A stretch of DNA of 64,000 bases from Escherichia coli (lineage in GTDB: Bacteria > Pseudomonadota > Gammaproteobacteria > Enterobacterales > Enterobacteriaceae): the NCBI RefSeq assembly GCF_003991155.1, contig NZ_CP031293.1; one strand, given 5' to 3'. Of this stretch, positions 22,350-42,514 are shown one piece after another (the stretch's first letter is position 1; each line of letters begins with the position of its first letter). The translations under genes and the position numbers were made by a program. The notes beneath the pieces were generated by a model. That model worked only from the letters and a program-made list of their open reading frames with translations, made no database searches and was not told where the DNA came from.

Positions 22350-22367
22350 AAAATACAATCCCGGGTG

Positions 22368-23899: not shown

Positions 23900-23928
23900 C
23901 CACCTTCTCCACCTTCTCCACCTTCTCC
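23900..23928. repeat. 9-bp tandem repeat ccaccttct x3.2 inside a pyrimidine-rich tract
   Basis: Direct reading gives ccaccttct ccaccttct ccaccttct cc. Confidence 0.9.
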
Positions 23929-24762
23929 TTCATTCAATCATAACTACTGTAATTCATACGATACTCAGATAAGTTATTTTACTACGTTGTTGCTAATATC
24001 TACCTGTTATCAGTCTTCACTGAAACAGCAATTGATTTTAGTCATTATCCATAATGAACTGTATTGACTTAACGATGATTGTTGTTGACCTGAAGTGTTT
24101 TAACTATTCTGGTAAATATCAATACTTCTGTCATCACTGATTAACTGGATGTTTACTCTTTGATAAGGTATCCATGATTTCGTCATGTTTAACAGCGCAG
24201 GATAAACAATGAAATTAACAGAGTGAATTCCTGATTATATTTGTTCGTTTCTGATTATCTTGTATGTTAAACAAAATGAAAATTATCCATCCATGGTATA
24301 TTTTATTCTGGTACCGTGTACCCGTTAACGCTCATGTTTTGAAGTGAGTTGTTTTTAACAGATTAAATGAGAGTGTATGATTTTATCAGGTTACAGATAT
24401 GTGTTGGCCTTGTACACGTTTTTGCAGACTCACTGAGAGCAAGTTTGTAGTTTATGATGTGATTGGTCGCAATATGTTTCTTAATCTCCAGGTAGTGGGG
24501 TTTTAGCTCGTATTTTACAGTATTTCGTGATGTTTTATTGAGTCTGTATTTTCTTTACTCCTCGTTTATCTCATCTCTTTAGCTAATACCATCAGATAAT
24601 CCATTTCTTTCTGCATAATGCTGCGTATCGTTAATAACCCGTCGTATCCATTCTGCTACAGCATGCCTGATAAATACCATCTGTAAGTTATTACCGTTAT
24701 GAGCGAAAGCATTAATTCGTTCACAGAGCTTAAAACATCATTAACTTTCAGGAGTCATCAAC

Positions 24763-25329
24763 ATGCCTAAATCTTACACACCAAACTGGTTTTTTACCGC
24801 TTTACTTGACAATCACATCAATCAAATGCTGGCACGTTATTCCTGCCTGCGAGCTTTACGGATGGATTTCTTCTACAGGAAAGATACGCCTGATTTCTTA
24901 CAACCTGATCATCGCTGGCTTGAATTGCAGTTGCGTATGATGCTGGAACAGGTTGAACAATTTGAAAATATCGTTGGCTTCTTCTGGGTGATTGAATGGA
25001 CGGCTGATCATGGTTTTCATGCGCATGCGGTTTTCTGGATCGATCGTCAGAGGGTTAAAAAAATATATCCCTTTGCGGAGCGGATTACGGAATGCTGGCG
25101 GTCTATTACGCATAACAGCGGTTCGGTACATCGCTGTACATATCAGCCGCATTATACATACAACATCAACATTCCTGTGCGCCACAACGATCCTGAAAGC
25201 ATCAATAATATTCGCGGTGCCCTGCATTATCTGGCGAAAGAAGAGCAAAAAGACGGGTTGTGTGCCTACGGCTGCAATGAAGTTCCTGAACGTCCTGCTG
25301 CAGGGCGTCCTCGTAAGCCTCACTTCTGA
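24763..25329 (+). CDS. YfjJ/YagK-family protein, paralogue 2
   Basis: 188 aa reading ...LRMDFFYRKD...FFWVIEWTADHGFHAHAVFWIDRQ..., with a GGAG Shine-Dalgarno. Confidence 0.7.
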   Translation: MPKSYTPNWFFTALLDNHINQMLARYSCLRALRMDFFYRKDTPDFLQPDHRWLELQLRMMLEQVEQFENIVGFFWVIEWTADHGFHAHAVFWIDRQRVKKIYPFAERITECWRSITHNSGSVHRCTYQPHYTYNINIPVRHNDPESINNIRGALHYLAKEEQKDGLCAYGCNEVPERPAAGRPRKPHF

Positions 25330-25575
25330 AGCTTAAGGCCTGAGCCTCCGCTCCTGGAAACACTCCGTCGGTAAAACCTTACCACCTTGCTTAATGATGT
25401 GAACTGAAGTCAACGGAGATCATTCATCCTGAACCTGAATCCGGTGTTCTGTCCCTTATCTTCCCGTTCTGCTTCAGTTCTTCACTTATTCCATCAACCC
25501 CATCCGCAAACCATAACACGTCAGCGCATCCACGGGCAGGACGCGTTGTGGGCTGCGCATAACGGAACATATCTT

Positions 25576-26151
25576 ATGAATGCTATTCCTTATTTCGACT
25601 ATAGCCTGGCACCCTTCTGGCCATCTTATCAGAACAAAGTCATCGGCGTCCTTGAGCGTGCGCTACGTGAGCAGTCCTGCGCCCGGGTACGGCGGATCCT
25701 GCTTCGCCTGCCGGGGGAACATGACAACATCTTCAGTGACAGAAAAACCTGGTTCGGTATGGCCTTTATCGAAACTGTCAGTGCGCTGATGAATGCAACC
25801 CCCGGACGCGACCTCTGCTGGCTCCTGACCCGTCATCCTGAAAAGCCGGAATACCACGTGGTGCTGTGTGTCAGACAGGAGTATTTCGACGGCCCTGAAC
25901 TGGACCGGCTGATTCTGGATGCCTGGAGCAACGTACTGGGCTTCGCGTCACCGGGTTAAGCAAAGCCGTATCAGAAGCAGATCACCCGGGATGTAGTACT
26001 GGACAGTCGTTCGCCGGACTGCGAAGACCTGTTTAAAGACCTGATCTGGGCATTCAGCGATTTTGCCCGCGATCGTCGTGGTGTGTGCGATCCGGAAGCT
26101 CGTTGCCTTGCCGGTAATCCCGGGTATCCCGGATCTGCAGGACCGTTCTGA
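25576..26151 (+). pseudogene. YfjJ/YagK-family paralogue 3, interrupted by an in-frame TAA
   Basis: MNAIPYFDYS...NVLGFASPG ends at a TAA (25957-25959). The same frame then continues for 63 codons (AKPYQKQITRDVVLDSRSPDCEDLFKDLIWAFSDFARDRRGV...) to a TGA at 26149-26151. The combined length of ~191 aa matches the family. Confidence 0.55.
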
Positions 26152-26219
26152 AAACACGGCTCAGCATCTTCTTCCGCATTTGCACAACCTTCATAAATCT
26201 CACAAAGGACATTCTGACC

Positions 26220-26453
26220 ATGTTGACCACAACAAACCACGACAGCGTGTTGCTGCGTGCCGACGATCCCCTGATCGACATGAACTACATCACCAGTTTC
26301 ACTGGCATGACAGATAAATGGTTTTACAAGCTGATCAGTGAAGGCCATTTCCCTAAACCCATCAAACTGGGGCGCAGCAGCCGCTGGTACAAAAGTGAGG
26401 TGGAGCAGTGGATGCAGCAACGAATCGAGGAATCCCGGGGGGCAGCAGCATGA
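26220..26453 (+). CDS. AlpA-family (prophage CP4-57 regulatory/excisionase-like) DNA-binding protein
   Basis: 77 aa reading ...LIDMNYITSFTGMTDKWFYKLISEGHFPKPIKLGRSSRWYKSEVEQWM, the AlpA MerR-like HTH signature. Confidence 0.85.
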   Translation: MLTTTNHDSVLLRADDPLIDMNYITSFTGMTDKWFYKLISEGHFPKPIKLGRSSRWYKSEVEQWMQQRIEESRGAAA

Positions 26454-26704
26454 AACGTGTTGTAATGCCGGCGCTGGTATTGCGGAAATCAGCCCTGTCC
26501 CCGATGCTGGCGACACTCCCGCTCATCTTTCAGCTGACTCCTCTGGTCAGCCAACTGTTTGTCATCATTTCCTGACTGATTCGTCATTCCCTTCGTCCCG
26601 CCAGTCGCTGGTGTTTGTATTGTACCGTGCCGGTGTTGATGTGCGCTTTCCGTGTGTCTGCACCGGCTTAACAAAATTCAACAGGGTTTGAAAAGGAACA
26701 TTTC

Positions 26705-27253
26705 GTGCAAATAACCGAAGCCTTAATTTCAGAGCCGGGAGACATCCGGCGTTTTGTTCAGCAGGCGGTGGACCACTGGCCGCATCTGCTGGCATTTTAC
26801 TTCACACTCCATTCGGCAGAAGGAAATATCAACGGGCGACAGATTCATGCATTCTGTACTTCCTTTTACCGACAGGTGCACGAACGTATTACTGAGCGTA
26901 ATCACACGGCCAGTCCATCCTCGCCGGTGGTATTACGCTGGTTGCGGGAACAACATGGAGGAGCAACAATACGATGCCTGTTGCTGCTCAGCCAGACGAG
27001 CATTTGCCATCCGCGGGCCAGTGCCACGGTTGATGAACAATGTTCGCAAGTGGTGGATTTGCTGCAACAGAGCTGGCAGGTGATAAGTGCTGGCGGACAA
27101 TGCCGGGTGGAAAGGTGTTTTCGGGTTGCCCGGGGTGATACATCCGGCCAGTATGTTGCGTTAAAAACAGTCGCATTGTCTCTGGGGTTACCGGTTGTGA
27201 CCGCCATTACCCATCGTCCGGTACAGCGCTGTACATTGATTACAGCTCAGTGA
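26705..27253 (+). CDS. Island protein, distant YfjJ/YagK-like (paralogue 4)
   Basis: GTG start with an AAGGA Shine-Dalgarno. 182 aa reading ...LLAFYFTLHSAEG...FYRQVHERI... The family call is tentative. Confidence 0.45.
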   Translation: MQITEALISEPGDIRRFVQQAVDHWPHLLAFYFTLHSAEGNINGRQIHAFCTSFYRQVHERITERNHTASPSSPVVLRWLREQHGGATIRCLLLLSQTSICHPRASATVDEQCSQVVDLLQQSWQVISAGGQCRVERCFRVARGDTSGQYVALKTVALSLGLPVVTAITHRPVQRCTLITAQ

Positions 27254-27484
27254 ATCAGCGCTTTCTGGCTTTTCGTCGGTCATTCTGTCAACGCCACGAT
27301 GTTTGACCGTTATGGGGATGCGGACGATTTCCTGCACAGCGTTGTTTCACGGTGGTGGATGATGCAGCACCGCTGTTAAAAACAGTCGTTCAGTCCTTTG
27401 TGTTACCGGTTATGACAACAATCAGCTGGTGATGGTCGTGTGAACCAGCTGCGCTTCCGTTGATTCTTATGGACTGATAAAGTT

Positions 27485-27859
27485 TTGTCTGCTGAATCTT
27501 TATACGGAATTCTTTTCAGTATGCGTACACGAATTGATTATCTGGCGGATAAATACAGTTTTACTGAGCTGAATGAGTCTCCCCGTCTTCGCCGGCAGTG
27601 GCAGGATGTTCTGGAGGAGTGTCGGCAGACAGAGGCAGGGCCAGAAGAACGGTTGCGTATTGCACTGTTGAATGTGGATTACGTCACCAGTTTTGAACTG
27701 CCTTTTCGCTTGTTGCTTACCCGTACACCACAACTGACTGCTATGCTGCGTGAAGAATGGGATATCAGCCAGAAAAATGTGGTGTTCAACGATAAACGCT
27801 TTGGCTGCGTGTACAGCCTGAAGGCCAGTCTTTGTGGTGTGCTTCAGGCCGATGCTTAG
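27485..27859 (+). CDS. Hypothetical island ORF whose 3' end is replaced by an IS66-family fragment
   Basis: The start is uncertain (TTG at 27485 or ATG at 27521). The last residues, GVLQADA, derive from the IS66 tnpC fragment that begins at ~27834. Confidence 0.35.
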   Translation: MSAESLYGILFSMRTRIDYLADKYSFTELNESPRLRRQWQDVLEECRQTEAGPEERLRIALLNVDYVTSFELPFRLLLTRTPQLTAMLREEWDISQKNVVFNDKRFGCVYSLKASLCGVLQADA

Positions 27860-27985
27860 GCGTTATACGAATCCGGCAGAGTAACGGAAGCCGCGTGTAT
27901 GGCTCATTCCCGGAGAAGAATCCACGATGTGCATGTAAGAGTGCCAACCGACATCACCACGGAAGCCCTGCAGCGTATCGGCAAT
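27834..27985 (+). mobile_element. Internal fragment of an IS66-family tnpC (~150 bp)
   Basis: It aligns at the nucleotide level with the reverse complement of ~33800-33960 in the full tnpC of this window (ggtgtgcttcaggccgatgctta...gcgttatacgaatccggcag...cagcgtatcgg). There is a 13-bp deletion and scattered mismatches. Confidence 0.8.
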
Positions 27986-28315
27986 GGTTTGTTCCAGACC
28001 ATGCCGCTTACAGACCTCGAAATCAGTCACCGTGCAAGGTTCATAACCGCCAATCTGAAATGCCACCACCACAAAATCGGCATCCTGTAAGGCTTCTTTC
28101 TGTTGGGTGTGGCAGGTGATTTTGCCGCTGGCCCCTGCTGAATCCATCAGCTTACGCACCACAATATGCGACTCTTCCCGGCGGGTGGGATCAATGTCCA
28201 TCAGGGCAATATGCGCCGTTTTCAGCGCCTCACGATGGAACACATCACCAAGAATATTTTTAACGAAAATCGTCGAACCAGCGCCGATAAATGTAATTTT
28301 GGGTGCAGACATCAT
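27986..28315 (-). pseudogene. melA: 5' quarter of an alpha-galactosidase gene (melA-like, GH4)
   Basis: MMSAPKITFIGAGSTIFVKNILGDVFHREALKTAHIALMDIDPTR...[16 protein letters not shown] is almost identical to the K-12 MelA N-terminus. Homology stops at the IS66 junction. Confidence 0.85.
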
Positions 28316-28392
28316 GCAGATCTCCTGGCTTGCTTGATAACTTCATCATGGCAGGCGAATCTGCAGAAAACCTCCGGCTTCCAGATTGAGAA

Positions 28393-28446
28393 TTCCCATA
28401 AACTCAGATCCTGCGTGAAGCATCAGTAAATCTGAGTTTATGGGAA
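28393..28446. promoter_or_regulatory. melAB promoter operator: perfect 17-bp inverted repeat (MelR-binding sites)
   Basis: ttcccataaactcagat (28393-28409) and atctgagtttatgggaa (28430-28446) lie upstream of the melA fragment. The sequence matches the MelR site as I recall it. Confidence 0.7.
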
Positions 28447-28595
28447 TAAATTACCTGAAAAGAAGAGTTTTCGGCCTCATGATGCTCGGACGGACCCCTC
28501 TCCTCTCTGGGTAGAGGGTGAAAACCGTGCTCCCACTCGCAGTCATCCTCCCTCACTCCTGCCATAATTCTGATATTCCAGGAAAGAGAGCCATC

Positions 28596-28628
28596 CATGA
28601 ATACAGATCTCTTTATGTGCAGCAGTGC
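28596..28628 (+). pseudogene. melR: First ~10 codons of melR
   Basis: ATGAATACAGATCTCTTTATGTGCAGCAGT encodes MNTDLFMCSS, compared with K-12 MelR MNTDTFMCSS. The sequence then switches to the antisense of a PTS gene. Confidence 0.6.
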
Positions 28629-29011
28629 TTTAATCATCCCCGTGCCAGTAATAGCAGGGGTGAAAGATCTCGAAATAACACTGATAATCAGGGCGACGAT
28701 CCCAGCCGGCTTCGCGTTTTTATCGCTGCCTGCCGCGCCTTTCTTCTCCAGCAGCACATTATAGAGCAGGCGATAAACCTGCTGTACCTCATTACCAATA
28801 ACTATCTGGAACTGAAGCCTTTCTCCACCACGCAGATCAGGCCAGGGAGGGCACCAATCTGCGCATTGTTAACCTTTGAGCTGTCGTTGAACTCGGGGTA
28901 AGCAATGGTGAGCATACGGATGTTTTCCGCACCGCCCATCACGTAGAGGATTTTGTCTGCTGTTTCGTTATAGTTCATAGTGTCCCCTAGTGTTGGCGCA
29001 AAAAAGACCAA
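28629..29011 (-). pseudogene. Remnant of a glucose/beta-glucoside-class PTS EIIBC gene
   Basis: MNYNETADKILYVMGGAENIRMLT... is an EIIB-type N-terminus but lacks the CATRLR active-site motif. A stop follows, and then ...LISVISRSFTPAITGTGMIKALL (EIIC-like) reads in another frame. Confidence 0.6.
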
Positions 29012-29039
29012 AACGGCAGTGGCAATGGCATTCTCCAGC

Positions 29040-29225
29040 GTTTAAACGGAGAGCCGGATGCGTTGAAAGGTGCTGCTCCGGTTCGGAGAGGAGATACTGG
29101 GAAATAGTTCGACTACCCCCTATCTCTTACTCTACTCTGGACAGGTTAACGATGAGATACCTCACAGTAATATTTGCTCTGTTCGCAAGAAAGCTAGTGG
29201 GATGGGTAATGTTGTTGGACTGAAT
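29040..29225 (+). mobile_element. IS3-family transposase (OrfB) fragment
   Basis: The translation ...RRYWEIVRLPPISYSTLDRLTMRYLTVIFALFARKLVGWVM resembles a degraded W..DITY....G..YL..V.DLFSRK.VGW.M core. Confidence 0.45.
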
Positions 29226-29366
29226 CGCCACGGATAATCAGGCATTTCTGAGTTGTTTCAAGAAGGCGGCATTATTTGTGCTGCTCGTATCCCGGTCATC
29301 AGTGAACCGGTGAACGTAAATCAGCCGGAGGCACGATTTGGGCAAAAGAGATTTCCTGACAGGCAA

Positions 29367-29389
29367 GAAGCCAGCGAATGGCTGGCTTC
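29367..29389 (-). terminator. Hairpin downstream of tnaB
   Basis: The stem gaagccagc/gctggcttc with loop gaatg starts 10 nt after the tnaB stop. The U-tract is weak (TTGCCTGTC). Confidence 0.45.
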
Positions 29390-29398
29390 CTGAAGGAT

Positions 29399-30646
29399 TT
29401 AGCCAAATTTAGGTAACACGTTAAAGACGTTACCGAACCAGCATAAAATTACGGTTATACCAAAGAGAATGACAATCGCCGGAATAAGATTGCCGCCCCA
29501 GACTGTGAACATCTGATTGGGAAATTTCTTGCGGGCTTTGATTGCCAGCACTGCGGGAATAATGACCGCCCAGATGGTGGCGCACAGTCCGGCACCGCCG
29601 ATCCCGTAAATAAAGCCGTTCGGGAAGATCAGATACAACAACGCGGGTGGCAGGAAGGTTAACAGCACGGTTTTGAAACGCCCGGCGTGGGAGTTATCAA
29701 TCTTAAACAGATCCGCCAGATAATCGAACAATCCCAGCGTGACACCAAAGAACGAACTGGCAACAGCTAAGTTAGAGAACACCAGCAGGCAAAACTCGAT
29801 AATCCCATGCTGTTTGGTGCCGAGGAATGATTTCACCAGCGAATCAACGTTGCCGCCTGAGGAGATTATCGCCTTAAAGCTTTCTCGCGGGATATTCCCC
29901 ATCGTGCAATAGAGCCAGAAGAGATAAATCACCAGCGCCAGCAGCGAACCGAAGACCACGCTTTTGATTAGCTTATCTTTGCGTTTTCCATAGCAAATAA
30001 TCAGGCTGGGAATATTGCCGTGGAAACCAAATGACGCCAGACACACCGGCAAAGCCATAAAGATATACGGGAAGTAAGACTTACCCGCAGTGGAGCTGGC
30101 TGCATCGCGCAGAATGGAATAATCGGCCTGGAAGAAGAGAGAGCCAAACACGATCACAAAGGAGATAATCTTCAGCCCGAGGAACAATGAGGTAATACGA
30201 CTGGCGGCTAACGAACTTATCCACAATACGCTGGCAACGAAAATGGCTGTGCAGACTCCGACAATACGTGGATTAGCGTGATAACTCAGATTCATTGATA
30301 TCGTTTCGCTAATGATTGCGCCGTTAGCAGAAATATAGGCATAAGTGAGGATATAGAGAACGAAGGCAACGGTAATACCGCTGATAATGTTCCAGGTGTT
30401 ACCGATTAAATCTTTGGCGATGGTGTTAAAACTGGATCCGACGGGATAGTTTAAATTTGCTTCTAATAACAATAACCCGGAATGAAGCATTGAAAACCAG
30501 GCAATGATAAGGATAAAGGCTCCCCAGAAAAACCAGGCACCGGCAAGATCAACAGGTAAAGCAAACATCCCACCGCCAATTACCGTACCGGCTATAACCA
30601 TAACACCCCAAAATGCAGAGTGTTTTTTTTCAGCTTGTTCAGTCAT
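29399..30646 (-). CDS. tnaB: Low-affinity tryptophan permease TnaB
   Basis: 415 aa, collinear with K-12 TnaB with scattered substitutions (for example MTEQAEKK versus MTDQAEKK). Confidence 0.95.
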   Translation of the reverse strand: MTEQAEKKHSAFWGVMVIAGTVIGGGMFALPVDLAGAWFFWGAFILIIAWFSMLHSGLLLLEANLNYPVGSSFNTIAKDLIGNTWNIISGITVAFVLYILTYAYISANGAIISETISMNLSYHANPRIVGVCTAIFVASVLWISSLAASRITSLFLGLKIISFVIVFGSLFFQADYSILRDAASSTAGKSYFPYIFMALPVCLASFGFHGNIPSLIICYGKRKDKLIKSVVFGSLLALVIYLFWLYCTMGNIPRESFKAIISSGGNVDSLVKSFLGTKQHGIIEFCLLVFSNLAVASSFFGVTLGLFDYLADLFKIDNSHAGRFKTVLLTFLPPALLYLIFPNGFIYGIGGAGLCATIWAVIIPAVLAIKARKKFPNQMFTVWGGNLIPAIVILFGITVILCWFGNVFNVLPKFG

Positions 30647-30737
30647 GATGCCACCTTTAGATGAAGGCTATTTTTATTATTGAGGATGTAGGGTAAGAGA
30701 GTGGCTAACATCCTTATAGCCACTCTGAGTGTTTTAA

Positions 30738-32153
30738 TTAAACTTCTTTCAGTTTTGCGGTGAAGTGACGCAATACTTTCGGTTCGTAGGTAAAGGTTAA
30801 CCCTTTAATATTCGCCGCGTTCTCTTTCACATGTTTAAAGGCTTCAATAATGAAGTCCATATGTGTTTGAGTATATGTTGCGCGCGGAATGGTTAAACGC
30901 AGCAGTTCAGCCGGGCATGGCAGTTGTTTACCGGTTTTCGGATCGCGGCCTAACAGGAAAGAGCCAATTTCTACCGCACGGATACCGGCGACTTTATACA
31001 GCTCGCAGGCCAGCGCCTGTGCCGGGAACTGATCTGCCGGGATATGCGGCAGTAGTTTACCGGCATCAACGAATGCCGCGTGACCGCCCGCCTGCTGGCA
31101 GACAACGCCAATCTCTTCCAGGCCATCGACCAGATACTGCACCTGCGCAATACGATAAGCCAGCCAGTCCAGATTCATGCCGTCATACAGACCTACCGCC
31201 AGACGCTCCATAGCGCCGCCTTCCAGGCCGCCATATGTCGGGAAGCCTTCCTGCACCACGCAAAGGGTTCTGCATTCGGTGTACACATCAAAGAAGCTGT
31301 CGTCTTTCATGCACAGCAGGCCGCCCATCGGCACCATCGCATCTTTCTTGGCGGACATCGCCAGCATATCGGCATATTTGTAGGTTTCGCGGGTGATTTG
31401 CTCGATGGTCCAGTCTTTGTATTCTGCTTCACGCTGCTTGATGAAATAGGCGTTTTCGGCAAAGCGTGCGGAGTCCATTACCACCGGAATATCGTATTTC
31501 TTCGCGATGCTGTACATCGCTTTTAAGTTTGCCAGTGAAACCGGCTGACCACCTGCGGAGTTACTGGTGATGGTTGCAACGATATACGGCACGTTATTCG
31601 GGCCAACTTCTTCAATACCGCGTTCTAATCCCTCAAGGTCAAAGTTGCCTTTAAAGTCGTAACGCACGCCCGTATCGAAGGCTTCTTTGATATAGACGTT
31701 ACGCACGGTACAGCCGTTAATCTGGCTATGGCCCTGCGTGGTATCAAAGAAATAGTTAGAGAACGCCACCATTTTGCTGCGATCCAGGCCTTTTTCCTGC
31801 TCGCGTTTTTTAATCAGTACCGGAATATAGATTTGCTCTGCACCACGGCCCTGGTGAGTCGGAATAGTGTATTGATAACCAAAGATATTTTTCACTGACT
31901 CGGCTAACGCGTAGTAGCTGCGGCTGCCGCTGTAAGCTTCGTCGCCGCGCATCATCGCGGCCTGCATACTCTGCGTCACCGCCCCGGTACCGCTGTCGGT
32001 CAGTAAATCGATAAACACATCTTCACTATCCAGCAGGAACGGGTTCATGCCGGCTTTAATAATTGCTTCTTCACGATAAGCGCGAGTGGTACGTTTTACT
32101 GGCTCAATAACACGAATGCGGAACGGTTCAGGGAGATGTTTAAAGTTTTCCAT
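30738..32153 (-). CDS. tnaA: Tryptophanase TnaA
   Basis: From [32 protein letters not shown]... it is 471 aa. The PLP-lysine region reads [12 protein letters not shown]. Confidence 0.95.
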
Positions 32154-32359
32154 TACGTAATCCTTCATTTATTTTAAGGACAGAAAATTACGGAGATATT
32201 GCAAATGCAATACCCGATAGTTCGCTAAAATATTTGCAAGAGACATCATTTATAAAAATGAATGATAGTCTTTACAAAAGCAGAAATAAGATATGCCAAA
32301 CAGACAGGTTAGATGGAATTCAATCTATTTGACAAAAATGATGGTTACAGAAAGGCAAG

Positions 32360-32434
32360 TTAAGGGTGGTGTTCAACAATCTTGTTGTCGATATTGAACC
32401 ATTTTGAGGTCACACATATATGTAAGATATTCAT
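32360..32434 (-). CDS. tnaC: tna operon leader peptide TnaC (24 codons), variant
   Basis: My own translation is MNILHICVTSKWFNIDNKIVEHHP followed by TAA. K-12 reads ...IVDHRP followed by TGA. W12, D16 and P24 are conserved. Confidence 0.9.
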   Translation of the reverse strand: MNILHICVTSKWFNIDNKIVEHHP

Positions 32435-32509
32435 AATGCACTTATCCTCGAAAGACACGAGGTTACAGTATAATACTCAAGAAATTTGTCTATCCTGAAA
32501 TTGTTTAAA

Positions 32510-32525
32510 TGTGAATCGAATCACA
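32510..32525. promoter_or_regulatory. CAP/CRP site of the tna promoter
   Basis: tgtgaatcgaatcaca is a perfect palindrome, TGTGA-N6-TCACA. It lies ~75 nt upstream of the tnaC start, as at the K-12 tna promoter. Confidence 0.8.
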
Positions 32526-33488
32526 GTTGGTTATTAGTGATATAAAATGACAATGATTTTGCATCATTAAAAATATTTATCAATTACGTTGATAAAACTA
32601 TTACATGCAGGTGTTAATAAATGGTGATAAAAATGGTAAATGACAGAGATGTAATGTTGAAGATGATTCCTTGATGAGAATTATGTTCTACGGAAGTGGT
32701 ACATCAACTTTTTGGGAAGGTATATAAATAAAGCAGAATAGATCACGTTTGGCACACATCTGATTACTCATGTAATTAACTAATTTCAGCACGGTTTTTC
32801 TTGCTTTTTTAGAGTAATTAATATACCGATGCCCAAGATGAATATCATAAGAAATACTATCAAAATAATGTCTGGAATGAAATATTATACAGATGAATGA
32901 TTGCGGTTACCTGATGATTTAAATAATGAATATGTGATTTGCTTGTTATATAAGAAAATTTAAATATTGCCGATAGTGTATTGAATAGTGCCTGCTTAAC
33001 GGGGTCCCCTGTTAAGTTGTCAAGCATGTTTATGAGACTGCTGGGGGATAAAAAGTCCCGGCACACATCCTGCTAACAGGACATCACTGCACTGTCTGAG
33101 CGATAAACGCTTGGTTGTGTCGTATTCCACGGCTCATTTTACGTGTGTAGTACGTTTGGGTATTGGTTTTCGGAGAGCAGCAAAGGCTGACAGGAACAAT
33201 GCCCGTTTGATGAGTTTATTGTCTCGTCTTGGCGGATGTTCGCCACATATTGATGAACCGTAACGCTAGGTAAAAAGGGGAAGCAAGACCCCACTGTTTC
33301 ACTTCAAAAGCCTTGCTTATGTAGAGTGATGAGATGGAGTGCCAGAAGGCCTGGAGTGGCAGAATAACGACTGCGGCATGCGTACCGGGAGCGATCATGG
33401 TTTGTTGTACCAGTGCCTGAGTGATGTCTGCCGCGGGGCGTTTTTCAAGATGAGGCTCAAGCTTGCAGGGCTGCCAGCTTCTTTTCAC

Positions 33489-34883
33489 TTAGCGAAGCCA
33501 GTTTTTCCGGCCTACGGCTACTCCCCGTAAGGCGTTCTCTGCGATGTTGTTGTCGATTTCCACCCAGCCATTGCTGCAGTACACGTTCAGGCCATCCCAC
33601 TGTTTCAGCAGGTATGCGAACGCTTTTGCCGTATCTGAGTGACGCGACAGTGTTTTCATCTGTTGCTGTATCCAGTCATACAGTGACTGCATCAGTGGCG
33701 CGGCTCTGGCTTTTCTTGCCGCCAGACGCTGTTCTGCTGAACAGCCCCGGACCTCTGCCTCGATGGCATACAGTTCACCGATACGCTGCAGGGCTTCCGT
33801 GGTGATGTAGGTGGGCGCTCTTGCATGCACATCGTGGATTTTTCTCCGGGCATGAGCCATACACGCGGCTTCCGTTATTCTGCCGGATTCGTATAACGCC
33901 CGGTAACCACCGTAAGCATCGGCCTGAAGCACACCGCTGTAACCGGCCAGGTGATTTTGTGGATGGATACCTTTCCGGTCCGGACTGTACGCGAACCAGA
34001 CCGCCGGGGGCATCTGTGAACCGGCGTTACGGTCATCACGGACGTAGACCCACAGCCGGGCTGTCCGGGTTTTACCGCTGCCCGGCTCCTGGACCGGGAC
34101 GGGGATATCATCAGCATGGACTTTACCGGGCATCAGCACATACTGGCGCAGGACGTCATACAGCGGCTCCAGCAGTTCAGCAACAGCACCTGTCCAGCGC
34201 CCCAGTGTGGCACGGCTCAGCTCCACTCCCTGACGACGGTATATTTCTGACTGGCGGTATAACGGCAGATGGTCTGCATATTTCCCGGTGACAACATGGG
34301 CCAGAAGCCCCGCTCCGGCATAACTGCGTGCAATGGGTTTTGAAGGTACTGGTGCCTGCACGATATGGTCGCACCGGCAACAGGCCTGTTTCGGACGTTG
34401 TGTTTCGATAACCTTAAAGGCGCTGCTGATAAGCTCCAGTTGCTCTGACACATCACATCCCAGAGAACTGAGTTCACCACCACAGGCAGGACAGCATTCC
34501 TCTTCCGGCCGGATAACCCGGGTTTCACGGGGAAGTGAGGCCGGTAACGGTTTACGGGCTGAAGACTGGCGCAGGGCGGATGGCAGTACCGGGTCATATT
34601 GCTCACCCAGCGTTTCCGCCATTTCTTCCTGAAGTGCGCTGATTCGCTCCTGTGCTTCCTGTATCTGCCGTTCGGTTTTTGCACGAAGTTTTTCTGAGCT
34701 TTTACCGAACTGCATACGTTGCAGTTTCGCAACCAGCGCCTTCAGCCGGTTGATTTCGGAAGCATAAGCCGCCACCCGCTGTGAGAGCAGGCGGTTGTAT
34801 TCAGCCATCTGGCGGATGGTGTCCTGTTGCGTCTGCAACAGTGCCCGCAGGCGGGCGTTCTCATGAGCAAGTGAGGTGTCCAT
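33489..34883 (-). pseudogene. IS66-family transposase TnpC, 3' end disrupted
   Basis: The 464-aa ORF ends ...[16 protein letters not shown], whereas family members continue ~50-60 aa past GRKNWLF. The downstream sequence keeps weak similarity in other frames. Confidence 0.7.
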
Positions 34884-34902
34884 ATCCTCACTTTACAACG
34901 GG

Positions 34903-35250
34903 TTATATGCGGATTCCAGCGCGTTCCGTTCGTTTCGGGTGCTTCCAGTTGATACCTTCAAGAAGCATGGATAACTGAGCCGGAGTAAGGTGCACCTTGC
35001 CGTCACGGGTGACTGGCCAGACGAAGCGGCCCCGCTCCAGGCGTTTGGTGAAGAGGCACAGTCCGTCACTGTCAGCCCACAACACTTTTATCTGGTCACC
35101 CCGGCGTCCGCGGAAGATGAACAGGTGTCCGGAGAACGGGTCATCCTTCAGGACGTTCTGAACTTTTGATGCCAGGCCGTTAAAGCCATTTCGCATATCG
35201 GTGATACCTGCAACCAGCCAGATACGCGAACCTGCAGGGAGAGATATCAT
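34903..35250 (-). CDS. IS66-family TnpB (orf2)
   Basis: 115 aa reading MISLPAGSRIWLVAGITDMRNGFNGLASKVQNVLKDDPFSGHLFIFRGRRGDQIKVLWAD. Confidence 0.9.
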   Translation of the reverse strand: MISLPAGSRIWLVAGITDMRNGFNGLASKVQNVLKDDPFSGHLFIFRGRRGDQIKVLWADSDGLCLFTKRLERGRFVWPVTRDGKVHLTPAQLSMLLEGINWKHPKRTERAGIRI

Positions 35251-35927
35251 CAGTGGCTGCTCCCTTTTATTTCGCGGATAAGTGTCTGTAATAACGCCGG
35301 CGTCAGTTTACCTTTAAGCCTGAGAGTTCCGGCCGGCAGAACCAGCTCACAACACAGACTGTCGGACGGTGTATTTATCTGCTCTGGTTCCTGTGCGGGG
35401 GCCGGGATTTTATTATCCGGCTCCGGCGTTAACGTCACGGGAAGCAGTGCCGGCATATTTTTTCCGGAAGGCAGCAGGCCACCTTTCCGGTATTGATGGC
35501 GCCAGTTGAAGAGCAGGTTATCGTTGATTCCGTTTTCCCGGGCGATCTGCGCCACACAGGCTCCGGGCTGCAGTGACTGCTCCACTAAGGCGATTTTAAA
35601 CTCATAAGGGAAGTTGGGCCGCCGGGGACGTTTTTTTACCACGGGGGCTTCGGATATAACGGTGCTTTCAGGACGTACGACTGGTACCGTGGAAAATTGT
35701 CCGTAAAGGCAGGCATCAAGTTCCTGCTCCGACATGCCTGCGGGCAAAGGCCACGAAAGGCCAGCTCTCCGAAAGCGCACGAACATACTACAAACTGTTG
35801 ATTTTGGTACACCCAGGCGACGCCCGGCCACAACCCGGGGTAAATGTTCTTCAAAGTGAAGACGTAAAGCTTCAGTGATCCAGGTCCGGTGTTTCATACG
35901 ATAGTGTCCATTAAAAATGATGGACAT
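35250..35927 (-). CDS. IS66-family TnpA (orf1), long form with an extra N-terminal HTH
   Basis: ...RRPNFPYEFKIALVEQSLQPGACVAQIARENGINDNLLFNWRHQYRKG... Its stop overlaps the tnpB start (ATGA). Confidence 0.8.
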   Translation of the reverse strand: MSIIFNGHYRMKHRTWITEALRLHFEEHLPRVVAGRRLGVPKSTVCSMFVRFRRAGLSWPLPAGMSEQELDACLYGQFSTVPVVRPESTVISEAPVVKKRPRRPNFPYEFKIALVEQSLQPGACVAQIARENGINDNLLFNWRHQYRKGGLLPSGKNMPALLPVTLTPEPDNKIPAPAQEPEQINTPSDSLCCELVLPAGTLRLKGKLTPALLQTLIREIKGSSH

Positions 35928-35980
35928 TATTTTTGTAGAGCCGGAGGAAACAGACCAGACGGTTTAAATGAGCCGGTTAC

Positions 35981-36251
35981 TTTCCCTCGCGCCATTGTTG
36001 TCGCCATTTGAACAACAGATTGGCGTTAATGCCATTTTCAAGAGCAAGTTTTGAGATGGATATCCCGGGTTCACAGGAGGCAGCAACGAGCTGCTGTTTA
36101 AATTCGGGAGGATAATTAGGGCAGCCTTTTCGCCTGCCGGGAGTCACATTTTTCTGCATATCTGACACTTTGGTTCCCACTACTTATTTGGTGGACACCA
36201 CTTTGTCTAATTCGTCAGATTCTGACCAGACGGTTCAGGCTGTACGCTTAC
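35981..36251 (-). mobile_element. Remnant (IRL plus 5' tnpA) of a second IS66-family element, cut by the insertion at 35980
   Basis: The terminal GTAAGCG reads on the minus strand ending at 36251. The 67-aa ORF (35977-36180) ...PPEFKQQLVAASCEPGISISKLALENGINANLLFKWRQQWREGK ends at a stop codon supplied by the inserted element's terminus. Confidence 0.7.
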
Positions 36252-36836
36252 GTAGAACGCAGGTTCGTTTCGGTTCAGGATCGCGACAGTGCCCCCTCAC
36301 CTTCAGCTACAGTTCCCATAGAATTTTTTTCAGGTCAGTAATACTGGCTGCTGTTGTTGTCAGGATTTGATAGCTCATAAGCCCCGTTTGTCTTATTGGT
36401 ATAAGAGCATCTTTAAAAGCACTCTTAAAAGTACTCGTGTTGAAAAAACAGCCAGAACAAATGAAGTATGGCTCTTTCCGACAACTCTCTAAAACGTTCT
36501 GTAACACATTCTGAGCGTTTTTACGTCAGTTAGGCACGCCGCTCAGTGCTTCTGAGCGGCCTTGTTGCCGCGATCTGTTGTCCTGATCTTGATAAATGAA
36601 CATCAATACGGCGTTCCGTCAGTGTTTACAATAACTCCCAATTCATAACTACTTTTAACACATTTGTGTGATTCCCCCTTTCTGCTGAAAATATAGTTAT
36701 TTCCAATATAATCAATGAGTTTTATTAATTTGTTGATTTTTTTTTTCATGTTTTTTTTGTGATAATTATCATTTGAATGTGAATGTTGCTCCTGAATAAT
36801 GTTTATCAAAGTTGTCTGGTACGAGGGAGAAATTTC

Positions 36837-38099
36837 ATGGCTATCATCATGGGGATCATCGCTGACGATTTTACTGGCGCGACTGATATTGCCTGCTTTA
36901 TGGCAGAGAATGGTTTTCGGGTTGCGCTGTTGCCCGGTTTGCATGCACTCACGCAGTCATGGGATGAAGAGGCTGATGCAATAGTCATTTCACTGAAAAG
37001 TCGTTCATTACCCGCGAATCAGGCAATTGAGCAGACTTTGCTAAGTTATCATTGGTTGCGTGACTGTGCGGGGGCGCAGCAGATCTATTTCAAATATTGC
37101 TCAACATTTGATTCCACTGCAGATGGCAATATCGGCCCGGTCAGCGATGCACTGATGAAGGTGATGGGCACACCTTATGTCGTGCATTGTCCCGCTTTGC
37201 CCCAAAATGGCCGAACAGTTATCCATGGACATCTTTTTGTTAACGGTATACCCCTTAACGAATCCGGCATGGAAAAACACCCCCTGAATCCAATGACCGA
37301 CACTAACCTGCTGCGCGTACTGGCTGCACAAACCCCCAATAGAGTTGGTAATCTTGATCTGAGGACAGTTCAACAGGGCGAGCAAGCCATCACCACCGCA
37401 CTTTCCCGTTGTCAGGCTGAAGGGAAGCAACACATTATTGTCGATACATTAACTGAAAATGATCTGCAAAGCCTGGCAAATGTATTACGCCATACACCTT
37501 TACTGGCTGGGGGATCCGGACTGGGTGGGGCGTTAGCCGCTTTTTTACAGCAACATCCTTATACGCCAGCCTCCGCGTTTCCCAATCCTGCCAGAACGGT
37601 AATCTTCTCCGGAAGTTGTTCAGTGATGAGTAATCGACAGGTGGATGCTTATAAATCGCATGCAGCCACGCAGTTGCTTGATGTTGCTCGTTGTCTGGAC
37701 GATGGCAATAGATATATCGATCAATTACTTGAATGGACAATTGCGCACATCAATGATCCGCTTGCTCCGTTGATTTACGCCACTCAACCTGCGGATGTGT
37801 TGAAATCTATACAGCAAACCTGGGGTGAACACGCGGCAAGTAAAGCCATTGAACAAACTTTTGCGCAGCTTAGCCAAAAATTGCAGGTCGCGGGTGTCAA
37901 CACTTTTATTGTTGCTGGGGGAGAAACTTCCGGGACTGTAGTGGAAGCGCTAAATGTGAAACGGCTAACAGTGGGGAGCACTATTACGCCGGGCGTACCA
38001 TGGGTTTTTTCGGCAGAACCGCCCCTGGCACTGGCGCTGAAATCTGGCAATTTTGGGGAGCCTGATTTTTTCATTAAGGCTCAGGAGCATGGATTATGA
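36837..38099 (+). CDS. DUF1537 four-carbon acid-sugar kinase (OtnK/YgbK-like)
   Basis: The start is trimmed to MAIIMGIIADDFTGATDIACFMAENGFRV, with a GAGGGAG Shine-Dalgarno. It is collinear with YgbK motifs (IADDFTGATD, YFKYCSTFDST..GNIGPV, GGETSG, LKSGNFG). Confidence 0.85.
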   Translation: MAIIMGIIADDFTGATDIACFMAENGFRVALLPGLHALTQSWDEEADAIVISLKSRSLPANQAIEQTLLSYHWLRDCAGAQQIYFKYCSTFDSTADGNIGPVSDALMKVMGTPYVVHCPALPQNGRTVIHGHLFVNGIPLNESGMEKHPLNPMTDTNLLRVLAAQTPNRVGNLDLRTVQQGEQAITTALSRCQAEGKQHIIVDTLTENDLQSLANVLRHTPLLAGGSGLGGALAAFLQQHPYTPASAFPNPARTVIFSGSCSVMSNRQVDAYKSHAATQLLDVARCLDDGNRYIDQLLEWTIAHINDPLAPLIYATQPADVLKSIQQTWGEHAASKAIEQTFAQLSQKLQVAGVNTFIVAGGETSGTVVEALNVKRLTVGSTITPGVPWVFSAEPPLALALKSGNFGEPDFFIKAQEHGL

Positions 38100-38734
38100 G
38101 TGAACTCATCGAACAAAAATTACGTGAACAACTCGTCTATTACGGGCGTTCGCTCTTTATGCGCGGTTTCAGTAGTGGCGGTTCCGGCAATATCAGCGTC
38201 AAACTGGCTGAAGACCGTTTTTTGGTCACGCCGACCAATTCCTGTCTTGGCGAGTTAGATAGTGAAAGAGTGAGTCTTATCGATATTCATGGCAACCATA
38301 TCAGTGGTGATAAGCCGTCAAAAGAGGTGCCTATGCATCTTGCCTGGTATCGACATCGTCCGAACTGTGGAGCGGTGGTACATCTGCACTCGCCATGGCT
38401 GACGGCACTTTCGTGTTTACCTTGCACAACACCAGAGAATTGCTTACCGCCGCTCACTCCCTATTACGTGATGCGTGTGGGGAAATTACCATTATTGCCT
38501 TATTTCAAACCAGGACATGAGGATATCGCTACGGCATTAAGCCATATAGCGGCCGACTCTACCGCAGCTCTGTTGGCGAATCATGGCCCCGTTGTCAGCG
38601 GAAGAACATTGCGCGAAGCGGTATTTAATGCCGAAGAGCTGGAAGACAGTGCCCGTATCTGGCTGACCTTAAAACCACTTGGCTATGTTCCTCTTTCGGC
38701 AAAAGACATCGCTGAACTGGAACAGGCCAGATGA
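38096..38734 (+). CDS. Class II aldolase/adducin-fold protein (OtnC/YgbL-like 3-oxo-tetronate 4-phosphate decarboxylase family)
   Basis: 212 aa reading ...GGSGNISVKL...FLVTPTNSCLGEL...HLHSPW...ANHGPVVSG. Its ATG overlaps the upstream stop (ATGA). Confidence 0.8.
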   Translation: MSELIEQKLREQLVYYGRSLFMRGFSSGGSGNISVKLAEDRFLVTPTNSCLGELDSERVSLIDIHGNHISGDKPSKEVPMHLAWYRHRPNCGAVVHLHSPWLTALSCLPCTTPENCLPPLTPYYVMRVGKLPLLPYFKPGHEDIATALSHIAADSTAALLANHGPVVSGRTLREAVFNAEELEDSARIWLTLKPLGYVPLSAKDIAELEQAR

Positions 38735-38749
38735 TAACGAGGTGAGAGG

Positions 38750-39556
38750 ATGATACCCGAGCAAAGGCGAGACTTTATTTACCGCTATGTCCATGAGAAA
38801 AACGTTGCTTCATTTAATGAACTGGCTGAGTTGATGAGCGTTTCGCATATGACAGTGCGTCGTGATATTCAATTACTGGAAGAAGAAGGCAAAGTTATTA
38901 CCATAAATGGCGGCGTTAAGCTGAACAACCAACTTAAATTGGAGTTACCGTGGCGAGAAAAAGCTGAACTGCATCATGATATTAAGCGTGACATGGGGCA
39001 GCTTGCTGCGATGTTGATCGAACCCGGGCAGACACTCTATTTAGATGCCGGAACCTCATTATTTGAGGTCGCAAAAGCAATCGTTGCCAGCCAGTGCTTT
39101 AATCTCACTATCGTGACAAATGATTTCTCTATCAGCCATTACCTGATGGATATGCAACATATCACGCTTTACCACACCGGGGGATTGGTAGATCAACGCA
39201 ATCGTTCTTGTTTGGGGAAAAGTGCAGCTGATTTTCTGCGCACGATTAATATCGATGTTGCATTTCTTAGCTCCTCTTCATGGGATACACAAAGAGGAAT
39301 GTCAACACCAAATGAAGGTAAAGCTACAGTGAAAGAGGCGGCGCTTACGGTCTCCCGTCGCCGCGTATTAGTGTGTGATAGCAGTAAATTCGGTAAATAC
39401 GGAATGTTCCATATATGCGAGCTCAGCCAATTGACCGATATCATTTCAGATAACCAGTTGCCTTTATCGGCGCAGGAAAGCATTACACAGCTGGGCGTGA
39501 AATTACATCTGGTTAATAGCCGGGAGGGAACGCAGCATGTTGAAGCTGGCGGCTAA
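38750..39556 (+). CDS. DeoR-family transcriptional regulator (YgbI-like)
   Basis: N-terminal HTH FNELAELMSVSHMTVRRDIQLLEEEGKV plus a DeoR C-terminal sugar-phosphate sensor domain. 268 aa. Confidence 0.85.
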   Translation: MIPEQRRDFIYRYVHEKNVASFNELAELMSVSHMTVRRDIQLLEEEGKVITINGGVKLNNQLKLELPWREKAELHHDIKRDMGQLAAMLIEPGQTLYLDAGTSLFEVAKAIVASQCFNLTIVTNDFSISHYLMDMQHITLYHTGGLVDQRNRSCLGKSAADFLRTINIDVAFLSSSSWDTQRGMSTPNEGKATVKEAALTVSRRRVLVCDSSKFGKYGMFHICELSQLTDIISDNQLPLSAQESITQLGVKLHLVNSREGTQHVEAGG

Positions 39557-40313: not shown

Positions 40314-40334
40314 AATCTTTTTCTGGAGGAAAAT

Positions 40335-41147: not shown

Positions 41148-41168
41148 CGACAGACAGGACATTTTACT

Positions 41169-42479: not shown

Positions 42480-42514
42480 TCTGCCTGTTGTAACCTTTCA
42501 AAAGGAAACTCAAT

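What the first reader, a model, noticed from the sequence alone, without database searches (positions are those of the whole stretch)
29340..32560. Complete tnaCAB operon, with its CAP site and leader, carried as island cargo between IS debris
In K-12 the tna operon is a backbone locus (next to mnmE and mdtL), not at selC. Here a full unit lies inside the selC island: the palindromic CRP site (32510-32525), tnaC, a ~206-nt spacer, tnaA, tnaB and the downstream hairpin. It is flanked by an IS3-family fragment (29040-29225) and IS66-family elements (33260-36251). None of the K-12 neighbouring genes are present. The proteins are close to the K-12 versions but not identical. This could be a second, diverged copy (altered indole dosage) or a relocated only copy.
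Basis: partly seen in the sequence, partly recalled or inferred. Interest (0 to 1): 0.7.

Follow-up and report, generated by a model that had tools for sequence, protein, structure and literature searches.

The report
Second tryptophanase operon in selC island
This E. coli lineage (two of the matching genomes are published as ST457) carries a second, intact indole-producing tnaCAB operon inside a mobile island at selC, and its tryptophan-sensing leader differs sharply from every other Escherichia copy compared, so the extra copy may be switched on differently.

Summary
Window 29309-32525 (minus strand) holds a complete tnaC-tnaA-tnaB unit with the CRP site, promoter, 206-nt spacer and terminator hairpin. 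It lies inside a 45-kb island at selC that is bounded by direct repeats. It is a second copy, not a relocated one: the same genomes keep an intact mnmE-tnaCAB-mdtL locus. Only 21 of 5,426 complete E. coli genomes have it, and two of them are published as ST457.

The new point is that the unit is a mosaic. The promoter, the 5' part of tnaC and tnaA are ordinary E. coli alleles (tnaA is 98.9% identical to phylogroup B2 alleles). The tnaC 3' end plus the tnaC-tnaA spacer, which is the Rho-dependent attenuator, is at most 70% identical to every other E. coli copy and 61-72% identical to six other Escherichia lineages. It differs at positions that do not vary across the genus. The leader peptide ends EHHP instead of DHRP. 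R23H is a published tryptophan-hypersensitive mutation that raises basal expression.

I predict a CRP-dependent, tryptophan-responsive operon with a lower induction threshold. This is untested.

I rate it a new member of a known kind, of moderate interest.

The parts
4874..50025 (.). selC-integrated genomic island, about 45.1 kb, bounded by direct repeats of the selC 3' end
   Evidence: The repeat TGGCGGAAGATCACAGGAGTCGAA occurs at 4874-4899 (24/26) and 50000-50025, with 0 matches expected by chance. Backbone setC lies to the left and yicJ/yicI to the right.
50000..50094 (-). selC, the tRNA-Sec gene (island attachment site)
   Evidence: ARAGORN.
48523..49704 (-). Island tyrosine-type integrase next to selC
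   Evidence: RefSeq annotation of the identical DNA, mapped to window coordinates.
32510..32525 (-). CRP (CAP) binding site of the tna promoter, TGTGATTCGATTCACA. Homology to backbone tna loci starts exactly here.
   Evidence: Identical in the E. coli, E. ruysiae and E. whittamii loci aligned across the promoter.
32435..32509 (-). tna promoter and tnaC ribosome-binding site, of the phylogroup F/B2 E. coli haplotype
   Evidence: Three differences from the strain's own backbone copy over the 91 nt from the CRP site to the tnaC ATG. The promoter core AATTTCTTGAGTATTATACTGTA is identical to the backbone.
32360..32434 (-). tnaC leader peptide gene: MNILHICVTSKWFNIDNKIVEHHP, stop codon TAA. W12, D16, I19 and P24 are kept. 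D21E and R23H are unique within Escherichia.
   Evidence: The exact peptide forms a singleton cluster seen on 349 contigs.
32154..32359 (-). tnaC-tnaA spacer, the site of Rho-dependent attenuation. It is 206 nt against 218-223 nt in other Escherichia and is hyper-divergent.
   Evidence: At most 69.6% identity to the other 5,367 of the 5,388 E. coli genomes that gave a match. 61-72% identity to seven Escherichia lineages, which are 75-98% identical to each other. The ratio of spacer divergence K to synonymous divergence dS is 1.1-3.2 for island pairs and 0.19-0.81 for 21 orthologous pairs.
30738..32153 (-). tnaA, tryptophanase, 471 aa, intact. An ordinary E. coli allele.
   Evidence: PF01212, 281 bits. 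98.2% nucleotide identity to the strain's own backbone copy; the best other E. coli alleles reach 98.9%. Only 7 sites differ from all six E. coli alleles compared. One unique amino-acid change, S34A.
29399..30646 (-). tnaB, low-affinity tryptophan permease, 415 aa, intact. It contains two divergent patches (about 30332-30256 and 30143-30081).
   Evidence: PF03222, 508 bits. 96.2% identity to the backbone copy; best other E. coli allele 97.0%. Seven amino-acid changes are unique to the island copy; four of them fall at sites that do not vary even in the outgroup genera.
29368..29392 (-). Stem-loop after tnaB, terminator-like. The tract homologous to the tnaB-mdtL intergenic region continues to 29309.
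   Evidence: -22.2 kcal/mol, z = -3.2. Extent of homology.
32526..32993 (.). AT-rich DNA upstream of the CRP site, with no match outside this lineage. Possibly the donor's original flank.
   Evidence: No match in any E. coli genome outside the 21 carriers. No match in the tna loci of other genera.
29049..29135 (+). Group II intron remnant (domains V/VI).
   Evidence: Rfam RF00029, 50.1 bits, E = 1.4e-7. 87-90% identical to group II introns next to ltrA on plasmids.
32994..33510 (-). IS110-family (ISEc20-like) transposase fragment
   Evidence: RefSeq annotation. 81-84% identity to ISEc20 copies.
33495..36159 (-). IS66-family element (ISCro1-like): a truncated transposase gene, tnpB, tnpA and a further transposase ORF
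   Evidence: RefSeq annotation of identical DNA. ORFs.

Best explanation
This is a horizontally acquired second tnaCAB operon. It is carried as cargo in a 45-kb island integrated at selC. Among 5,426 complete E. coli genomes the island copy is found in only 21, and two of those are published as ST457. The normal mnmE-tnaCAB-mdtL locus is retained.

The cassette was cut inside the flanking intergenic regions. It starts at the CRP site and ends about 43 nt before the position where mdtL would start. It sits between a group II intron remnant and IS110/IS66 debris.

The cassette is a recombination mosaic:
- The promoter, tnaC codons 1-19 and tnaA are E. coli alleles of the phylogroup B2/F type.
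- tnaC codons 20-24, the whole attenuator spacer and two patches of tnaB come from, or evolved in, a much more divergent lineage.

Every part needed for the known mechanism is present: the CRP site, the promoter, the tnaC ribosome-binding site, TnaC residues W12/D16/I19/P24 at the usual spacing, a stop codon, a C-rich and G-poor weakly structured segment directly after tnaC, the tnaA Shine-Dalgarno sequence, and intact tnaA and tnaB.

I therefore infer that it works as a catabolite-repressed operon in which a tryptophan-stalled ribosome on tnaC blocks Rho-dependent termination.

The leader carries H23. In K-12, R23H raises basal expression more than 20-fold and lowers the tryptophan needed for stalling about 3-fold. 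The spacer is also rewritten at positions that are invariant across the genus. I therefore infer that the island copy has a different set-point from the backbone copy, most likely a lower tryptophan threshold or a higher basal level. That would add indole output and tryptophan uptake at tryptophan levels where the backbone copy is still off.

Shown: structure, copy number, distribution, mosaic pattern, conservation of the motifs.
Inferred: expression, direction of the regulatory change, any fitness effect.
For: Second copy:
- Intact backbone locus in the same genome.
- Two tna places in each of the 21 genomes.

Island cargo:
- tRNA-Sec, integrase and direct repeats.
- The right half of the island is unique to these 21 genomes.
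- MRY15-117 and MRY15-131 are ST457 (PMC5430464).

Intactness:
- Pfam hits for all three products.
- The operon is 100% identical in the 21 genomes.
- The exact TnaB, TnaA and TnaC products are seen on 360, 296 and 349 contigs, and the 27 contigs read for TnaB were all in the island context.

Mosaic:
- tnaA: 7 sites differ from all E. coli alleles. tnaB: 24 sites, clustered in two patches. Spacer: 70 of 226 alignment columns.
- The divergent tract has sharp edges, at about 32375 and about 32167.
- No other E. coli spacer is more than 69.6% identical.
- Spacer K/dS is 1.12-3.24 for island pairs against 0.19-0.81 for 21 orthologous pairs, including E. marmotae and E. albertii.

Leader:
- EHHP plus TAA, against DHRP in all seven Escherichia lineages.
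- R23H phenotype from PMC8429421 and PMC10941005.
- The rut site lies immediately after the tnaC stop codon (same papers).
- The first 80 nt after the stop have C18/G10, against C18/G12 in the backbone.
- No significant secondary structure in the leader.
Against: - There are no expression data. The R23H effect was measured in the K-12 leader, with D21, a UGA stop codon and the K-12 spacer.
- H23 occurs naturally in 8 of 39 TnaC peptides from other genera. In those hosts it presumably gives normal regulation, so context may cancel the effect.
- The spacer changes fall at positions invariant across the genus. They could equally have weakened the rut or pause sites (constitutive expression) or damaged tnaA translation.
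- TnaB carries four substitutions at sites invariant even in the outgroup genera. This could mean relaxed constraint.
- One genome (CDE6306) shows a 1-nt deletion in the island tnaB. This may be decay or a sequencing error.
- The AT-rich upstream flank could attract H-NS silencing (my inference, not tested).
- The donor of the divergent tract was not found. E. fergusonii could not be sampled.
Confidence: 0.7

Rival explanations
1. Relocated only copy. The strain's single tna operon moved from the mnmE-mdtL locus into the selC island.
For: None beyond the window itself, which cannot show the rest of the genome.
Against: The same genome has an intact mnmE-tnaC-tnaA-tnaB-mdtL locus. All 21 carriers have two tna places. 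The two copies differ by 5.1% over 3.2 kb.
Confidence: 0.01
2. Assembly or coordinate artefact: a mis-join that places backbone tna sequence in the island.
For: None.
Against: The junctions are identical in 21 independently finished genomes and in the 27 contigs read out of 349 collection blocks that list the exact TnaB. The island copy has its own sequence, with a spacer at most 70% identical to any backbone copy.
Confidence: 0.01
3. Passenger in slow decay. The operon arrived by chance with IS-mediated shuffling, is redundant with the backbone copy, is silent or unselected, and its unusual spacer and TnaB changes are the first signs of degeneration.
For: - It sits among IS and intron debris and gene fragments of melA and a bgl-type PTS gene.
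- The spacer differs at genus-invariant positions.
- TnaB has four changes at sites invariant across genera.
- One carrier may have a tnaB frameshift.
- A sub-lineage has an IS1 about 100 nt upstream of the CRP site.
Against: - All three ORFs, the CRP site, the promoter, both ribosome-binding sites and every essential TnaC residue are intact and identical in 21 of 21 finished genomes.
- The spacer has diverged about 3 times more than the synonymous sites of the adjacent genes. Neutral decay since a common origin cannot produce that.
- The edges of the divergent tract are sharp, which points to recombination rather than gradual erosion.
- The C-over-G composition typical of a rut site is kept.
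Confidence: 0.22
4. In-place rapid evolution. The whole cassette came from an ordinary E. coli, and the spacer, the TnaC C-terminus and the tnaB patches then changed quickly under selection for new regulation, with no foreign donor.
For: - 61 of the 70 spacer differences are unique to the island copy rather than shared with other Escherichia species.
- The TnaB changes at universally invariant sites are derived, not ancestral.
- No donor was found in the genome or metagenome scans.
Against: - About 60 substitutions plus a 14-nt deletion in 206 nt, next to a tnaA with only 7 private sites, implies a local rate more than 50 times higher. I know of no mechanism for that.
- EHHP combines residues that are native to other enterobacterial genera.
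- The orphan flanks on both sides fit a foreign origin with later gene conversion of the coding parts by E. coli alleles.
Confidence: 0.2

Closest known systems
E. coli K-12 tnaCAB operon (b3707-b3709): TnaC-mediated, Rho-dependent attenuation under CRP control
   Same: - Same gene order.
- Identical CRP site.
- Same 91-nt distance from the CRP site to the tnaC ATG.
- A 24-codon tnaC with W12, D16, I19 and P24.
- TnaA 99.8% and TnaB 97.6% identical at the protein level.
- A C-rich, G-poor segment directly after the tnaC stop codon.
- The same tnaA Shine-Dalgarno block.

   Different: - Location: selC island instead of between mnmE and mdtL.
- The leader ends EHHP-TAA instead of DHRP-TGA. This also changes the boxA-like CGCCCTTGA to CACCCTTAA (the boxA role is from my memory of Konan & Yanofsky 2000, which I could not read here).
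- The spacer is 206 nt instead of 220 nt and only about 70% identical.
- Seven private TnaB substitutions.
Laboratory TnaC(R23H) and TnaC(R23F) tryptophan-hypersensitive mutants (van der Stel et al. 2021, PMC8429421; PMC10941005)
   Same: The island tnaC has the same CGC to CAC change at codon 23. In K-12 this change gives more than 20-fold higher basal reporter expression and about 3-fold lower [L-Trp]0.5.
   Different: The island version is a natural allele combined with D21E, a UAA stop codon and a different spacer. Its phenotype has not been measured.
tna operons carried on mobile DNA in other bacteria, for example the tnaAB-bearing Salmonella enterica plasmid NZ_CP022662
   Same: Tryptophanase genes carried as accessory cargo outside the usual chromosomal locus.
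   Different: The Salmonella plasmid copy is only 81% identical, and only tnaA and tnaB are annotated under the match. It gives indole production to a species that lacks the operon. Here an Escherichia-type copy, complete with its leader, is added to a genome that already has one.
selC-integrated islands of E. coli (LEE, PAI I-536, SHI-2, the Tia island; named from memory)
   Same: The same tRNA-Sec attachment site, a P4-type integrase next to the tRNA, a direct repeat of the tRNA 3' end at the far border, and a mosaic interior rich in IS elements.
   Different: The cargo is metabolic: tna, a 3-oxo-tetronate kinase cluster and pseudouridine catabolism, together with a CP4-like module containing a CbtA/YeeU toxin-antitoxin pair. 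No virulence locus is annotated in it.

Membership tests
tnaCAB tryptophanase operon (E. coli type) | tnaA encodes a full-length PLP-dependent tryptophanase | tested here: met
   471 aa. PF01212 at 281 bits against a cut-off of 27. 99.8% protein identity to E. coli TnaA. The SAKKD motif containing the PLP-binding lysine can be read in the translation (the motif's role is from my own knowledge).
tnaCAB tryptophanase operon (E. coli type) | tnaB encodes a tryptophan permease directly downstream of tnaA | tested here: met
   415 aa. PF03222 at 508 bits. The tnaA-tnaB gap is 91 nt, as in the backbone.
tnaCAB tryptophanase operon (E. coli type) | An upstream 24-codon leader, tnaC, with W12, D16 and P24 immediately followed by a stop codon | tested here: met
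   MNILHICVTSKWFNIDNKIVEHHP followed by a stop. PF08053 at 64 bits against a cut-off of 25.
tnaCAB tryptophanase operon (E. coli type) | CRP-dependent promoter with the palindromic CAP site | tested here: met
   The site is 16/16 identical. There are three differences from the strain's own backbone copy over the 91 nt from the CRP site to the tnaC ATG. Binding itself was not tested.
tnaCAB tryptophanase operon (E. coli type) | A rut site and Rho-dependent termination points in the tnaC-tnaA spacer | tested here: inconclusive
   The composition is kept (C18/G10 in the first 80 nt; 12 YC dimers against 11) and there is no strong structure. However, about 17 of the first 65 nt differ from a block that is nearly invariant across the genus.
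tnaCAB tryptophanase operon (E. coli type) | Induction by tryptophan and repression by glucose | not testable with these tools
   This needs reporter or RNA measurements.
tRNA-integrated genomic island at selC | Insertion at the 3' end of tRNA-Sec, an adjacent tyrosine-type integrase, a direct repeat at the far border, and conserved backbone genes on both sides | tested here: met
   The repeats are at 4874-4899 and 50000-50025, with setC on the left and yicJ/yicI on the right.
   The stretch matches the group II intron model RF00029 and plasmid group II introns. No IS3 feature is annotated there.

The most novel reading that the evidence does not exclude
The island operon is a naturally re-tuned tryptophan sensor. 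A TnaC with the hypersensitive H23 residue, combined with a replaced Rho-attenuator spacer, switches on tryptophanase and TnaB at lower tryptophan levels than the backbone operon, or partly constitutively. The carrier lineage would then have a two-threshold indole system that contributes to its success across hosts. It would be the first natural example of paralogous arrest-peptide attenuators with different ligand set-points in one genome.
Probability: 0.25. Interest if true: 0.6.

Novelty: new member of a known kind. Interest (0 to 1): 0.4.

Why it matters
Indole affects E. coli biofilm formation, stress and drug tolerance, and signalling to the host. ST457 is a multidrug-resistant lineage found in livestock, wildlife and people.

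A lineage-specific second tna operon would change indole and tryptophan handling. It also gives a simple marker for these 21 genomes.

For the ribosome-arrest field, it offers a natural R23H leader joined to a very different spacer. This is a ready-made test of how the peptide, the stop codon and the rut region together set tryptophan sensitivity.

I found no paper describing it in the searchable library. That library is incomplete.

Tried and rejected
- Searching for a donor. None carried the island spacer.
- Metagenome scan with a 22-mer specific to the spacer. It gave only two chance hits in contigs of 26-30% G+C.
- Plasmid search. No plasmid carries this variant.
- TnaB homologue search. 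Clustering at 90% identity puts all Escherichia TnaB in one cluster, so it gave no resolution.
- E. fergusonii could not be obtained. E. marmotae and E. albertii loci were obtained through cluster members.
- Konan & Yanofsky 2000 (PMC94583) is not held, so the statements about boxA and the exact rut site rest on later papers and on my memory.
- I first read locus L084 as having a split tnaA. It is only a run of N.
- I first read locus L086 as having lost tnaC. In fact an IS1 sits upstream of an intact CRP site and leader.
- I considered that the rut site had simply degenerated. I rejected this as a firm claim because the C/G composition is unchanged.
- The consensus promoter/terminator scan and the RNA folding of the leader gave nothing above chance.
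- The Rfam search found no other RNA family in 26000-38000.


Full report
**What is there**

On the minus strand of the window lies a complete tna unit.
- The palindromic CRP site TGTGATTCGATTCACA is at 32510-32525.
- tnaC is at 32434-32360, followed by a 206-nt spacer.
- tnaA is at 32153-30738 and tnaB at 30646-29399.
- A stem-loop of -22.2 kcal/mol lies after tnaB.

Pfam recognises all three products well above the curated cut-offs. Homology to the ordinary E. coli tna locus begins exactly at the CRP site. It ends at 29309, about 43 nt short of the position where mdtL would start. No part of mnmE or mdtL is present.

**Setting**

tRNA-Sec is at 50000-50094, with a tyrosine-type integrase next to it. 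A 24/26 copy of the selC 3' end lies at 4874-4899. Backbone setC lies to the left and yicJ/yicI to the right. The operon therefore sits inside a 45-kb island at selC that is bounded by direct repeats.

Its immediate neighbours are:
- a group II intron remnant at 29049-29135 (Rfam RF00029, 50.1 bits; plasmid intron matches). This is not an IS3 fragment.
- 468 bp of AT-rich DNA (32526-32993) with no match outside this lineage.
- an ISEc20-like IS110 fragment from about 32994.
- an ISCro1-like IS66 element.

**Second copy or relocated copy**

It is a second copy. The window is 100% identical over 1-25000 to a set of finished E. coli genomes. Over 25001-50000 it matches them at 100% identity apart from an IS1 at 47520-48287 that only the window carries. 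One of those genomes (AR Bank #0349) has an intact mnmE-tnaC-tnaA-tnaB-mdtL locus.

All 21 genomes that carry the island copy show two tna places. The carriers are 21 of 5,426 complete genomes, and the right half of the island is found only in them. Two of them, MRY15-117 and MRY15-131, are ST457 according to PMC5430464.

The exact island TnaB is listed in 349 blocks of the public assembly collection. The 27 contigs that were read all showed the island context.

Relatives such as IAI39 and CE10 share only the left part of the island.

**Where the divergence sits**

Overall the island copy is 94.9% identical to the strain's own backbone copy, but the divergence is very uneven.

- tnaA is 98.2% identical to the backbone copy and 98.9% identical to phylogroup B2 alleles such as that of Nissle 1917. 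Only 7 of its 1416 sites differ from all six E. coli alleles compared. That is no more than the private differences of ordinary alleles.
- The promoter core has the F/B2 haplotype and is identical to the strain's own backbone.
- tnaB is 96.2% identical to the backbone copy, and the best other E. coli allele reaches 97.0%. 24 sites differ from all E. coli alleles, and 22 of them lie in the 5' half of the gene. They cluster in two patches, at about 30332-30256 and 30143-30081.
- The tract from tnaC codon 20 to 14 nt before the tnaA start is very different. It has 70 differing alignment columns, 61 of them unique to the island copy, plus a 14-nt deletion. Its edges are sharp.

No other E. coli genome has a spacer more than 69.6% identical to the island's. 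That holds for the other 5,367 of the 5,388 genomes that gave a match.

I added E. ruysiae, E. whittamii, a divergent "E. coli" lineage (L005), E. marmotae and E. albertii. All of them have TnaC ending DHRP. All keep a nearly invariant first 65 nt of spacer and an invariant block ahead of the tnaA Shine-Dalgarno sequence. The island copy differs in exactly these blocks.

The ratio of spacer divergence to synonymous divergence of the adjacent genes is 0.19-0.81 for 21 orthologous pairs. For the 7 pairs that include the island copy it is 1.12-3.24. The spacer and the coding regions therefore do not share one history.

**Origin**

I could not find a donor. The evidence that bears on origin is:
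- sharp tract edges;
- flanks on both sides with no known relatives;
- remnant divergent patches in tnaB;
- a TnaC C-terminus that combines residues native to other genera. HHP occurs in 8 of 39 TnaC peptides, for example in Atlantibacter, Citrobacter amalonaticus and Leclercia. E21 occurs in Pseudocitrobacter.

Together these fit a cassette from a lineage outside the sampled Escherichia, whose coding parts were later overwritten by gene conversion from resident E. coli alleles.

The rival is rapid change in place. It is supported by the fact that most spacer differences are unique to the island copy. It is also supported by four TnaB substitutions that are derived and fall at sites invariant even in the outgroup genera. 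I cannot decide between the two, and E. fergusonii was not sampled.

**How it probably works**

The published mechanism is as follows. CRP-cAMP activates the promoter. A ribosome translating tnaC stalls at P24 and the stop codon when free tryptophan is bound. The stalled ribosome covers the rut site directly after tnaC, so Rho cannot terminate transcription before tnaA (PMC8429421, PMC10941005, PMC12360218).

The island copy keeps every element of this: the CRP site, the promoter, both ribosome-binding sites, W12, D16, I19 and P24 at the usual spacing, and a stop codon. TAA is also the native stop codon in four of the Escherichia lineages compared. The segment after the stop is C-rich, G-poor and weakly structured. 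tnaA and tnaB are intact. I infer that the operon is functional.

The change at codon 23, CGC to CAC (R23H), is the same as a laboratory mutation. In K-12 that mutation raises basal reporter expression more than 20-fold and lowers the half-maximal tryptophan concentration about 3-fold. It also makes expression without added tryptophan resemble the induced level.

With the rewritten spacer as well, my best guess is a lower induction threshold or a higher basal level than the backbone copy. This is an inference. H23 is native in other genera, so its effect may depend on context. The spacer changes could also impair expression.

**Comparison and verdict**

This is a member of the tnaCAB family. 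Five of six defining features are met, rut function is unresolved, and induction cannot be tested here. It is carried in a typical selC island.

What is new:
- It is a second, Escherichia-type copy in a genome that already has one.
- It is found in only 21 of 5,426 complete E. coli genomes, two of them published as ST457.
- Its attenuator lies outside the variation seen in the genus.

I found no description of it in the searchable literature. I rate it a new member of a known kind, with moderate interest (0.4). The interest would rise if the two leaders prove to have different tryptophan set-points.

Noticed in passing
window 47520-48287: A 768-bp insertion with a 9-bp target duplication, the size of an IS1. 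It is present in the window but absent from all 21 otherwise identical finished genomes. It lies in the small helix-turn-helix gene just inside the island integrase.
   Followed up: partly
L086 7308-8005 and L088 contig end (window position about 32622-32626): A sub-lineage has an IS1 about 100 nt upstream of the tna CRP site. Beyond it lie a 456-aa sulfatase-domain gene (PF00884, the domain family also found in phosphoethanolamine transferases) and another IS66. The island tna operon itself is intact there.
   Followed up: partly
window 32786-32848 (-): A 20-codon hydrophobic ORF (MIFILGIGILITLKKQEKPC) lies in the AT-rich orphan DNA upstream of the island tna promoter. I saw it by eye. It may be chance.
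   Followed up: no
window 36837-43581 (+): Island cargo that, like the rest of the right half of the island, is found only in the 21 carriers: 3-oxo-tetronate kinase (otnK), an aldolase, a DeoR regulator, a hydroxypyruvate isomerase-like protein, a 3-keto-5-aminohexanoate cleavage protein, a bile acid:sodium symporter-family protein, GlcG and a racemase. It looks like an acid-sugar catabolic cluster.
   Followed up: no
window 19152-23462: A pseudouridine kinase and glycosidase, a NupC-family transporter and a sugar kinase in the left part of the island. This part is shared at about 97% identity with phylogroup F strains such as IAI39 and CE10.
   Followed up: no
window 27500-29000: A run of gene fragments between the tna cassette and the left part of the island: an IS66 piece, the 5' part of melA and a frameshifted beta-glucoside PTS IIABC fragment (RefSeq annotation of identical DNA).
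   Followed up: no
window 44782-45084: Annotated fragments of an IncFII RepA replication initiator and of an InsQ/TnpB-type gene inside the island. They suggest that plasmid-derived DNA contributed to it.
   Followed up: no
NZ_CP191552.1 (strain CDE6306) 93400-94646: The island tnaB matches over 1247 nt instead of 1248 nt (99.9%). This implies a single-base deletion, which may be a real frameshift or a sequencing error.
   Followed up: no
L003 (CP178306.1, E. coli ECGI0523): The tna locus of this genome, which the genome collection holds as a separate species representative, is identical to that of K-12 MG1655 over the region compared.
   Followed up: no
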